14,875 nt of DNA, from UHGV virus genome UHGV-1730466. One strand, given 5' to 3'. Numbering within the stretch: position 1 is the stretch's first letter; every line of letters begins with the position of its first letter. Below are positions 14,138-14,644 of this stretch, one piece after another. Below the pieces are notes generated by a model. The model was not told the DNA's origin. It saw nothing but the letters and a program-made list of their open reading frames with translations, and did not search any database. A program made the translations under genes and the position numbers. Source of the DNA: a virus.

Positions 14138-14644
14138 TCACCCCTCGCAACCCATCGAAGGTGCATATTCACCATAGAAAAAGTTTTCCGCCAAAATGCG
14201 AGCGGCGATCGCTTCGTCTAGTGAGTCAAATAAACCAATAGATATACGCTTACCTTCATTGTCGGTAATTCTTACTCGCCATTTAGGCTTGCTTCGCTCT
14301 GTTTTGTGGTAGCTAACACCCCTGAATGCAGACAATGTGTGAGTGGCAATATGTTTCTTGTTTCTGCAGTTATGCGCATCATCTGTTTCTCGCAGGTTTA
14401 CTATCCTGTTGTCGGTTTTTATTCCATTAATATGGTCAATGTCCTTTTCGGGCCACACTCCATAATGGAAAAACCACGCAAGGCGATGCGCTTTATATCT
14501 TCCTATGTGTATGTATCCGCTTTTATGCTTACACCCTGCTACGCTTCCGGCCTTGATTCTCCCGTGAGGACTAATCTTATAGGTGAAAATACCTGTCGCT
14601 GGATCGTAGTGTAGCTTTCGTTTTAGTTCATCATCACTTTCCAT
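14138..14644 (-). CDS. HNH endonuclease with AP2-type DNA-binding domain (homing-endonuclease-like), 168 aa
   Basis: HNH motif DIDHINGIKTDNRIVNLRETDDAHNCRNKK; AP2-like segment SAFRGVSYHKTERSKPKWRVRITDNEGKRISIGLFDSLDEAIAAR; sits between the endolysin and spanin genes; divergent paralogue of the 11298-11801 gene. Confidence 0.8.
   Translation of the reverse strand: MESDDELKRKLHYDPATGIFTYKISPHGRIKAGSVAGCKHKSGYIHIGRYKAHRLAWFFHYGVWPEKDIDHINGIKTDNRIVNLRETDDAHNCRNKKHIATHTLSAFRGVSYHKTERSKPKWRVRITDNEGKRISIGLFDSLDEAIAARILAENFFYGEYAPSMGCEG

What the first reader, a model, noticed from the sequence alone, without database searches (positions are those of the whole stretch)
14138..14644. Second, divergent HNH-AP2 endonuclease inserted within the lysis cassette
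The same domain architecture as the terminase-associated gene but clearly diverged in sequence, placed between endolysin and spanin genes and overlapping the endolysin stop. With the intein and the other HNH gene this makes three selfish endonuclease-type elements in under 9 kb of late region.
Basis: partly seen in the sequence, partly recalled or inferred. Interest (0 to 1): 0.5.

Follow-up and report, generated by a model that had tools for sequence, protein, structure and literature searches.

The report
Homing endonuclease gene inside phage lysis cassette
A selfish nuclease gene sits between the cell-wall-cutting and membrane-fusing lysis genes of a gut E. coli phage; nearly all related phages lack it, so it is an ordinary mobile element, though its insertion scars are unusually clear.

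Summary
ORF 14138..14644 (minus strand, 168 aa) is an I-HmuI-like HNH nuclease fused to an AP2 DNA-binding domain. It lies between a SAR-type GH24 endolysin and the Rz/Rz1 spanins and overlaps the endolysin stop by 11 nt. It is 37% identical to the terminase-associated HNH-AP2 gene.

It is not a conserved part of the cassette. All 7 GenBank mEp021-group phages, 35 E. coli RefSeq prophages and 44 of 45 IMG/VR relatives have the endolysin directly overlapping Rz.

- The gene is always linked to a divergent endolysin body (54% aa identity to the usual allele). Endolysin plus HNH form a 0-2% diversity island, while the flanks differ by 7-22%.
- The last codons of the HNH ORF are a leftover of the original endolysin 3' end and still carry the Rz ribosome-binding site. 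A Salmonella homologue keeps about 20 endolysin codons.
- Its closest relatives form a 98%-bootstrap clade. All nine members whose context was examined, in six phage backgrounds, sit at the lysozyme/i-spanin junction.

Best reading: a free-standing homing endonuclease gene specialised for this junction, spreading with co-conversion of the endolysin. Nuclease activity, target site and homing are inferred, not shown. It is a new member of a known kind and of moderate interest.

The parts
14138..14644 (-). Free-standing HNH-AP2 homing endonuclease gene (168 aa)
14369..14497 (-). HNH_3 nuclease core (residues 50-92), with D70-H71, N79, N83 and N92/N95
   Evidence: Pfam stretch. D70, H71, N79, N83 and N95 are invariant and N92 nearly invariant across 57 homologues.
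14189..14329 (-). AP2-type DNA-binding domain (residues 106-152)
   Evidence: Pfam AP2 below cutoff. Three strands plus a helix in the model. Matches TEM1, AtERF1, ERF96 and WRI1 AP2 domains.
14135..14150 (-). Remnant of the ancestral endolysin 3' end. It now encodes the last HNH codons (C-E-G-stop), still carries the Rz Shine-Dalgarno (GAGGGG), and has a 2-nt deletion relative to mEp021.
   Evidence: Homology to HNH-less phages runs from Rz up to 14150. Sister alleles end in CEWGETWTR*, matching the mEp021 endolysin tail CEWGEKWTR*.
14653..14663 (-). Upstream copy of the CEWG codons (TGTGAATGGGG) at the end of the functional endolysin. Together with the remnant it forms a direct repeat around the insert.
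   Evidence: Junction sequences of the HNH-bearing loci L005/L015/L016/L018/L026/L036 and of mEp021.
14634..14875 (-). 3' part of the SAR-type GH24 endolysin, the divergent allele that always accompanies the HNH gene. It is cut by the window end at a scaffold N-run.
   Evidence: Translation. The full 163-aa gene with PF00959 is seen in sister contigs. It is 54% identical to the mEp021 endolysin. The N-run is shown.
13664..14134 (-). Rz i-spanin; its ATG lies 3 nt after the HNH stop
   Evidence: Phage_lysis E 3.7e-25. Its DNA (13514..14150) is 91.7% identical to mEp021; the two proteins are shown.
13732..13926 (-). Rz1 o-spanin embedded in the +1 frame of Rz (lipobox LSGC)
   Evidence: ORF list and translation. 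The lipobox was read directly from the sequence.

Best explanation
The ORF is a free-standing homing endonuclease gene (HEG): an I-HmuI-like HNH nuclease with a C-terminal AP2 DNA-binding domain. It sits inside the 3' end of the endolysin gene of an mEp021-group (mEpimmI) temperate coliphage. The insert supplies the endolysin with five new last codons and a stop. The displaced original endolysin tail is left downstream, fused to the end of the HNH ORF, where it still provides the Rz ribosome-binding site, so endolysin, HNH and Rz/Rz1 remain one late operon.

Inferred mechanism: in a cell that also holds an HNH-less relative (co-infection, or phage meeting prophage), the enzyme nicks or cuts that relative's DNA in or near the endolysin/Rz junction. 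Recombinational repair then copies the HNH gene from the HNH-bearing genome, together with the adjacent endolysin body (co-conversion). The divergent endolysin allele and the interrupted junction protect the carrier from self-cleavage.

Shown here: protein architecture, insertion polymorphism, breakpoints, linkage, the diversity island, and the clade-wide position. Inferred: nuclease activity, target site, directionality (homing) and the immunity mechanism.
For: - Architecture: HNH_3 above the Pfam cutoff, an AP2 fold, a match to I-HmuI, and catalytic-type residues invariant in 57 homologues.
- Presence/absence: absent in 7 of 7 GenBank mEp021-group phages, 35 of 35 E. coli RefSeq prophages with the related Rz, and 44 of 45 IMG/VR relatives. 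In all of these the endolysin overlaps Rz directly.
- Shared breakpoints: in the 14 HNH-bearing contigs compared with mEp021, homology stops at endolysin nt ~65 and resumes ~31 nt before the endolysin stop.
- Linkage: the A-type endolysin allele was followed by the HNH in every one of 11 further places examined, and the mEp021-type allele never was.
- Diversity island: among 10 carriers, diversity is 0-2% across endolysin plus HNH, 7-22% immediately downstream in Rz, and 4-40% upstream. The same endolysin region in 43 HNH-less genomes has ordinary diversity of 4-20%.
- Endolysin-tail remnants: they are fused to the HNH C-terminus in E. coli alleles (CEWGETWTR*). In a Salmonella homologue the match is 13/16 identity to a lysozyme C-terminus (E 5e-7), with PHROG endolysin hits at residues 172-192.
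- Clade-wide position: the window protein and its ten homologues of 58% identity or more form a clade with 98/100 bootstrap support. All 9 members examined sit between a PF00959 lysozyme and an i-spanin. They occur in six backgrounds: mEpimmI, P22-like, Hendrixvirinae, and Salmonella, Yersinia and metagenomic phages with other terminases and spanins. More distant homologues sit at other sites.
- Composition and expression: GC is lower (41-44%) than in neighbouring genes (47-51%). No intron RNA family and no promoter of its own were found.
Against: - No cleavage, target site or biased inheritance has been measured.
- No genome with the same endolysin allele but an empty site was found. The last step of mobility (HNH entering an otherwise identical genome) is therefore not directly seen.
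- A rare divergent haplotype that cannot recombine with the common allele would show the same low-diversity island without any nuclease action.
- Carriers are rare (about 2% of IMG/VR relatives, none of 5,426 complete E. coli genomes), which is not what a strongly driving element would show.
- HNH-less genomes show no conservation peak at the insertion point.
- The window allele has lost the last five tail codons through a 2-nt deletion. This is harmless to the domains but shows ongoing decay of the junction.
Confidence: 0.7

Rival explanations
1. Passive passenger. The endolysin-plus-HNH block is an ordinary mosaic module that entered the mEp021 group once or a few times. It is shuffled by general homologous recombination in its conserved flanks, and the nuclease is inactive or irrelevant to its spread.
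For: The endolysin allele and the HNH are completely linked and no empty site was found. Carriers are rare. A non-recombining rare haplotype would give the same diversity island. Four old allele classes exist, with HNH DNA identity of 73-93% between classes, and class D is more diverged than its flanks.
Against: Catalytic-type residues are invariant and the ORF is intact in all carriers down to 58% identity. The clade keeps the same junction in six otherwise unrelated phage backgrounds with different spanins and terminases. Passive module exchange does not predict this. The right breakpoint is sharp and lies exactly at the HNH end.
Confidence: 0.2
2. Co-opted competition or regulatory factor. 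The protein mainly serves the phage, for example by cutting the lysis region of competing related phages or prophages (marker exclusion), or by acting as an AP2-type DNA-binding regulator, rather than by copying itself.
For: It is co-transcribed in the late operon without a promoter of its own. Phage homing-endonuclease DNA-binding domains have been co-opted as regulators: the T5orf172-derived CapR repressor, paralleled by plant AP2 factors (PMC10448857), and an AP2-mentioning DNA-binding Acr preprint. The gene has persisted as several old allele classes.
Against: It is absent from about 98% of close relatives, so it is dispensable. The nuclease motif is kept, which argues against a pure DNA-binding regulator. 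Marker exclusion is mechanistically the same activity as homing, so it is not really a distinct mechanism.
Confidence: 0.08
3. Integral lysis or packaging function: the gene is needed for lysis timing, or for terminase-associated DNA cutting like HK97 gp74-type HNH proteins.
For: Only its position, in the late operon between endolysin and spanin.
Against: All 7 GenBank phages of the group lack the gene, with endolysin and Rz adjacent and overlapping in the two records inspected. The same holds for 44 of 45 IMG/VR relatives. It belongs to the HNH_3/AP2 homing family rather than to a terminase-partner type.
Confidence: 0.02

Closest known systems
I-HmuI (Bacillus phage SPO1 HNH homing endonuclease; PDB 1u3e)
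   Different: From my own knowledge, I-HmuI is intron-encoded, nicks one strand, and uses NUMOD/helix-turn-helix modules for DNA binding. The window protein is free-standing and uses an AP2 domain. Sequence identity is only about 21%, and phmmer found no PDB relative.
HNH-AP2 homing endonuclease family (Magnani et al. 2004, as cited in PMC10448857; 'IPA-HNH' HEGs of ICP1)
   Same: Both have an N-terminal HNH and a C-terminal AP2 domain in phage genes of about 160-180 aa with sporadic distribution.
   Different: The ICP1 IPA-HNH proteins are too divergent for the Pfam HNH_3 profile, whereas this one scores well above its cutoff. None of the described members is reported at an endolysin/spanin junction.
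T4 free-standing HEGs with co-conversion or marker exclusion (SegB; mobE)
   Same: They are free-standing nuclease genes between or next to conserved genes. Cleavage of the HEG-less relative leads to co-inheritance of the nuclease gene and flanking DNA (abstracts of PMC2330249, PMC2790892 and PMC2988022). The endolysin body co-varying with the HNH fits that pattern.
   Different: In the T4 cases, cleavage and biased inheritance were demonstrated experimentally; here both are inferred. SegB is a GIY-YIG enzyme (PMC2330249). The host here is a temperate siphophage-like group, not a T-even phage.
HNH insertions in or around mycobacteriophage lysis cassettes (Pope et al. 2013, PMC3706429)
   Same: That paper notes at least 18 HNH insertions in or around lysis cassettes and suggests they contribute to the intragenic mosaicism of lysin A genes. 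The mosaic endolysin linked to an HNH gene is the same idea.
   Different: The host group, endolysin type (GH24 SAR endolysin against modular LysA) and HNH architecture differ. Here the junction, the endolysin-tail remnant and a site-specific clade are resolved at nucleotide level.
Nuclease genes at boundaries of genetic exchange (Barth, Dunham & Seed 2023, PMC10448857)
   Same: The HEG sits exactly at a recombination or mosaic boundary between otherwise similar phage genomes.
   Different: That work concerns Vibrio phage ICP1 and T5orf172/IPA-HNH genes. This case is in gut E. coli temperate phages and involves a lysis gene.

Membership tests
HNH_3 / I-HmuI-like HNH endonucleases | Profile match above the curated threshold | tested here: met
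   PF13392 at 52.1 bits against a cutoff of 24.8, E 5e-14. phrog_99 at E 8.6e-61.
HNH_3 / I-HmuI-like HNH endonucleases | Beta-beta-alpha-metal fold resembling I-HmuI | tested here: met
HNH_3 / I-HmuI-like HNH endonucleases | Conserved catalytic and metal-binding residues (D-H ... N ... N) | tested here: met
   D70, H71, N79, N83 and N95 are invariant and N92 is at least 90% conserved in 57 homologues. Assigning roles to these residues rests on my knowledge of I-HmuI and was not tested.
HNH_3 / I-HmuI-like HNH endonucleases | Site-specific DNA nicking or cleavage | not testable with these tools
   Needs purified protein and mEp021-type endolysin/Rz substrate DNA.
AP2 DNA-binding domain | Pfam AP2 profile above the gathering score | tested here: not met
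   23.3 bits against a cutoff of 33.3 (E 8e-5). Many homologues do carry a precomputed PF00847 hit.
AP2 DNA-binding domain | Three-stranded sheet packed on a helix, superposable on solved AP2 domains | tested here: met
Free-standing homing endonuclease gene | Own ORF, not inside an intron or intein | tested here: met
   It has a separate ATG and stop, and the endolysin ORF upstream is complete in sister contigs. No Rfam family, and so no group I or II intron, was found in the window.
Free-standing homing endonuclease gene | Presence/absence polymorphism among close relatives at a fixed site | tested here: met
   Absent in 7 GenBank phages, 35 E. coli prophages and 44 of 45 IMG/VR relatives. 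Present at identical breakpoints in more than 25 contigs.
Free-standing homing endonuclease gene | Flanking DNA co-inherited with the gene (co-conversion tract) | tested here: inconclusive
   The endolysin body is perfectly linked to the HNH and shares its 0-2% diversity island. The same pattern could arise from a non-recombining rare haplotype.
Free-standing homing endonuclease gene | Nuclease-dependent super-Mendelian inheritance (homing) | not testable with these tools
   Needs co-infection or lysogen-cross experiments with wild-type and catalytic-mutant alleles.

The most novel reading that the evidence does not exclude
The mobile unit may be a self-contained cassette rather than just the HNH gene: [replacement endolysin body and 3' end] - [HNH-AP2 gene] - [remnant of the endolysin 3' end]. 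The duplicated endolysin tail would act as a portable right-hand homology arm and also keep the spanin ribosome-binding site. This would let one HNH clade hop between phages whose spanins and terminases are unrelated. It would overwrite the resident endolysin each time, making it a direct driver of endolysin allele turnover in enterobacterial phages.
Probability: 0.25. Interest if true: 0.6.

Novelty: new member of a known kind. Interest (0 to 1): 0.4.

Why it matters
Free-standing homing endonucleases are thought to shape phage mosaicism, but few cases outside T4 and ICP1 are resolved to the nucleotide. This one offers a clean natural system in a phage group that is prevalent in the human gut (mEpimmI) and has cultured HNH-less members such as mEp021. 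The system has defined breakpoints, a fossil of the interrupted gene, a perfectly linked replacement endolysin allele, and a clade that keeps the same junction in six phage backgrounds. If the enzyme is active, it gives a testable example of a selfish nuclease driving replacement of a lysis gene. It would also be a candidate site-specific nuclease whose target could be read from the empty-site sequence. For annotation, the HNH ORFs of this clade carry endolysin-derived tails, which can cause 'endolysin' mislabelling or spurious hits.

Tried and rejected
- Empty site: I looked for a genome with the same (A-type) endolysin allele but no HNH. A protein search for the endolysin and 11 contexts of its 98-99% relatives all carried the HNH. 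None was found.
- Complete E. coli genomes: megablast matched only the Rz part. The 'distant' blastn of endolysin plus HNH returned no match at all. That is odd, because the first 65 nt are about 87% identical to common prophages. I treat it as a sensitivity or E-value limit and draw no conclusion from it beyond 'not present at detectable identity'.
- Target-site inference: I looked for a conservation peak at the insertion point in 43 HNH-less genomes and found none; diversity there is 6.5-6.7%, which is average.
- PDB sequence search: no meaningful hit. The link to I-HmuI needed fold comparison; Foldseek alone found only the AP2 part.
- Own promoter or terminator: consensus scans gave nothing above the shuffle expectation.
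- Intron-encoded HEG: rejected, with no Rfam match in the window.
- Lysis or packaging function: rejected on presence/absence.
- Longer homologues (258-288 aa, P0012-15, P0021, P0029): I checked whether they were lysozyme-HNH fusions. They are tandem duplicated HNH proteins and are not relevant.

Full report
**1. What is at the coordinates**

The window's late genes all lie on the minus strand. ORF 14138..14644 (ATG to TGA, 168 aa) is real.

- Pfam places HNH_3 at residues 50-92 (E 5e-14, above the curated cutoff). AP2 is at residues 106-152 (E 8e-5, below the cutoff).
- PHROGs assigns it to phrog_99 'HNH endonuclease' (E 8.6e-61).
- D70, H71, N79, N83 and N95 are invariant across the 57 homologues.

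The protein is therefore an HNH-AP2 nuclease. That architecture is already described as a homing endonuclease family (Magnani 2004, cited in PMC10448857).

**2. Neighbours**

- Upstream on the same strand is the C-terminal part of a GH24 lysozyme (14634..14875). Sister contigs show the complete 163-aa gene with an N-terminal SAR-like hydrophobic segment, preceded by a class II holin.
- The window stops at 14875 only because the source scaffold has an N-run inside the endolysin. The window is the reverse complement of L007 from position 5770, with 6737 of 6738 compared bases identical.
- The HNH ATG overlaps the end of the endolysin ORF by 11 nt.
- Three nucleotides after the HNH stop comes Rz (13664..14134; Phage_lysis E 3.7e-25), with Rz1 embedded in it (13732..13926, lipobox LSGC).
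- Consensus scans find no promoter for the gene and no terminator signal above chance. No Rfam family is present.

The gene is thus a free-standing ORF read as part of the late lysis operon.

**3. Relation to the other HNH gene**

The TerS/TerL-associated gene (11298..11801) has the same architecture. It is 37% identical over 142 residues (E 4e-28). The two are diverged members of one large family (both phrog_99), not recent duplicates.

**4. It is an insertion, not part of the cassette**

- The window's Rz region matches mEp021-group phages (mEp021, mEp515, mEp554, mEp044, mEp013, mEp010, MagusPhagus) at 85-91%. Every match stops at window position 14150.
- In mEp021 and MagusPhagus, the two records inspected, the endolysin overlaps Rz by 13-25 nt, and TerS abuts TerL with no HNH.
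- Thirty-five complete E. coli genomes match the Rz region; in the 29 fullest of the 30 rows listed the match again breaks at 14150.
- Of 45 IMG/VR contigs with an Rz 73-94% identical, 44 have an mEp021-type endolysin (90-99% aa) directly overlapping Rz and no HNH. Only one (L046) has the HNH (100% identical), and it carries the other endolysin allele.

**5. The HNH travels with a replaced endolysin body**

- The exact protein occurs on 16 contigs, largely from human-gut metagenome assemblies, always as holin - endolysin (163 aa) - HNH - Rz.
- Against mEp021, homology (about 87%) runs through the holin and the first 65 nt of the endolysin. It then breaks for 910 nt (397 nt in mEp021) and resumes 12 nt before the HNH stop.
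- The same two breakpoints recur in all 14 carrier contigs compared.
- The enclosed endolysin is only 54% identical in protein to the mEp021 one.
- A database search for this endolysin allele found 98-99% relatives and one 75% relative, then nothing above 59%. In all 11 contexts inspected for the 98-99% relatives the HNH follows. The 75% relative lies on the same contig as the 74% HNH allele.

Linkage between the endolysin allele and the HNH is complete in both directions.

**6. Diversity island**

Among ten carriers of the commonest allele class, the pattern is as follows:

| Region | Mean pairwise difference |
|---|---|
| Just before the endolysin start to the HNH end | 0-2% |
| First 150 nt of Rz | 7-22% |
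| Holin | 4-10% |
| Further upstream | 15-40% |

This is not because endolysins are slow-evolving: in 43 HNH-less genomes the same gene shows 4-20% diversity. At least four allele classes of the block exist, with HNH DNA identity of 73-93% between classes. One recombinant between classes is seen (L036).

The block is therefore inherited as a unit, and exchange breakpoints pile up at its edges. This is the pattern described for nuclease genes at boundaries of genetic exchange (PMC10448857). Homing with co-conversion predicts it. However, a rare haplotype too divergent to recombine with the common allele would look the same, so the direction of transfer is inferred, not shown.

**7. A fossil of the interrupted gene**

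- The mEp021 endolysin ends ...AVCEWGEKWTR*, and its last codons overlap the Rz start.
- In carriers the functional endolysin ends ...AICEWGVTNGK*. The last five codons and the stop come from the insert and overlap the HNH ATG.
- The HNH ORF itself ends ...APSNGCEWGETWTR* (L015)...GCEGETWTR* (L026) or ...GCEVETWTR* (L016). This is the old endolysin tail, read in frame and still overlapping Rz.

The insert is thus bracketed by two copies of the CEWG codons: TGTGAATGGGG upstream at 14653..14663, and a degraded copy at about 14141..14149.

In the window's allele a 2-nt deletion relative to mEp021 shifts the frame. The HNH then ends ...GCEG* at 14138, 3 nt before the Rz ATG, and the remnant still supplies the GAGGGG Shine-Dalgarno for Rz.

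The same feature appears deeper in the clade. The Salmonella homologue ends ...[25 protein letters not shown]. That tail matches a lysozyme C-terminus (13/16 identical to the Morganella phage lysozyme, E 5e-7). It also hits PHROG endolysin families at residues 172-192. The Yersinia (…MERELCLAG*) and Morganella (…AEKAICHGTL*) tails look like shortened versions; this reading is by eye and was not tested statistically.

**8. A junction-specific clade**

- The window protein and its ten homologues of 58% identity or more (alignment identities) form a clade with 98/100 NJ bootstrap support among 57 sequences.
- Every member whose context I read (9 of 9) lies directly between a PF00959 lysozyme and an i-spanin.
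- The backgrounds are: E. coli mEpimmI-like prophages; a Salmonella prophage; a Yersinia prophage with a DUF2570 spanin and Terminase_2; a metagenomic phage with the order lysozyme-HNH-Rz-holin; a P22-like phage with GP3_package; and Morganella phage IME1369_02 of the Hendrixvirinae.
- Homologues at 50% identity or less sit elsewhere: next to terminase genes or DNA polymerase, in the Stx-phage early region, or among Lederbergvirus head genes.

Conservation of site across unrelated backgrounds is what target-site specificity predicts. It is the strongest argument against a purely passive module.

**9. Mechanism proposed**

The element is a free-standing HEG. On meeting an HNH-less relative in the same cell, the enzyme nicks or cuts in or near the endolysin/Rz junction. 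The AP2 domain gives sequence recognition and the HNH domain does the chemistry. From my own knowledge, I-HmuI-type enzymes nick one strand. Repair from the carrier genome then copies the HNH together with the adjacent endolysin body. The carrier is protected because its endolysin is about 46% different at the protein level and the junction is split by the insert.

The arrangement is minimally harmful: the endolysin keeps a full-length C-terminus and Rz keeps its ribosome-binding site. Lower GC in the HNH and its endolysin (41-44% against 47-51%) is consistent with a foreign origin.

My confidence that this is an inserted HNH-AP2 HEG at this junction is about 0.9. My confidence that it is still actively homing with co-conversion is about 0.55-0.6. 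The overall confidence is 0.7.

**10. Comparison with known systems, and novelty**

- HNH-AP2 HEGs are a known family.
- Free-standing HEGs that drag flanking markers are classic in T4 (SegB, mobE).
- HNH insertions in or around lysis cassettes have been noted in mycobacteriophages, together with the suggestion that they drive lysin mosaicism (PMC3706429).
- The paper describing the mEpimmI phage group mentions neither HNH genes nor lysis genes. I found no description of this clade or of the fused endolysin-tail remnant in the searched literature; that literature search is limited.

I therefore file it as a new member of a known kind, with a well-resolved insertion anatomy. Interest is moderate (0.4): a specialist would find it neat rather than surprising, but it is directly testable with cultured mEp021.

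**11. The 'three selfish elements' remark**

It holds. The MuF-like ORF (6529..8436) has an Intein_splicing hit. It is collinear (99%) with the 313-aa intein-less version up to ...SPNSIN, after which about 322 extra residues follow, running from CYLPG... to ...IASN ahead of a Cys.

The three elements assort independently. L005, L006 and L008 carry the lysis HNH but neither the terminase HNH nor the intein, while L007 (the window) carries all three.

Noticed in passing
window 11243..11912 (HNH gene 11298..11801, minus strand): The terminase-associated HNH-AP2 gene is also an insertion with replaced flanks. The window has no homology to mEp021 from 11243 to 11912: about 150 nt in mEp021 are replaced by about 670 nt, covering the TerS 3' end, the HNH and the TerL 5' end. 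TerS is 166 aa against 161 aa and TerL 495 aa against 492 aa. The gene is absent from L005, L006 and L008, which carry the lysis HNH.
   Followed up: partly
window 6529..8436 (minus strand), residues ~275-596 of the 635-aa ORF: There is an intein in the Mu-F-like head protein. It is collinear at 99% with the 313-aa intein-less homologue up to ...SPNSIN; the insert then runs from CYLPG... to ...IASN ahead of a Cys. Pfam finds only Intein_splicing (E 7.5e-9) and no recognised endonuclease domain within the ~322-aa insert.
   Followed up: partly
window end 14875 / L007 5650..5769: The window ends at a run of N inside the endolysin gene of the source scaffold (ENA ERZ28629619, RAMP15-1 scaffold_86). 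The truncated endolysin is therefore an assembly gap, not biology. There is a second short N-run in the holin region of L007.
   Followed up: yes
L054 2704..3192; L027 4261..4492: Other mEpimmI-like genomes carry further HNH_3 genes at different sites downstream of Rz. L054 has a 34%-identical HNH after Rz in an otherwise HNH-less lysis cassette. L027 has a 161-aa HNH_3 gene after the 171-aa ORF. The Rz-to-TerS interval may be another hotspot for such genes.
   Followed up: no
P0012-P0015, P0021, P0029 (database homologues): Homologues of 258-288 aa are tandem duplications of the HNH module. In five of the six the N-terminal copy has lost the D-H dyad (for example 'LTHLNG', 'LTHVNG'), while the C-terminal copy keeps it, followed by AP2. 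P0029 keeps IDHING in both copies.
   Followed up: no
L021 3583..4170 (Salmonella prophage): About 590 nt with no called gene lie between the HNH (with its ~20-codon lysozyme tail) and Rz. In the Salmonella, Yersinia and Morganella members there are 90-150 nt between the lysozyme stop and the HNH start. In the Morganella phage this spacer includes a hairpin plus T-run (AGCACCTGAAGGTGCTTTTTTT) that looks like a terminator.
   Followed up: no
window 12853..13395 (minus strand): A conserved 180-aa ORF of unknown function (phrog_1365, E 4.6e-30; no Pfam hit) lies between Rz and TerS. It is present, as 180- or 194-aa variants, in relatives both with and without the HNH.
   Followed up: no
query L005:5520-6520 against E. 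coli genomes: The 'distant' blastn returned no match at all. This is unexpected, because the first 65 nt are about 87% identical to prophages that megablast had found through the Rz region. It is probably an E-value or word-size limit on a 28-Gb database.
   Followed up: no
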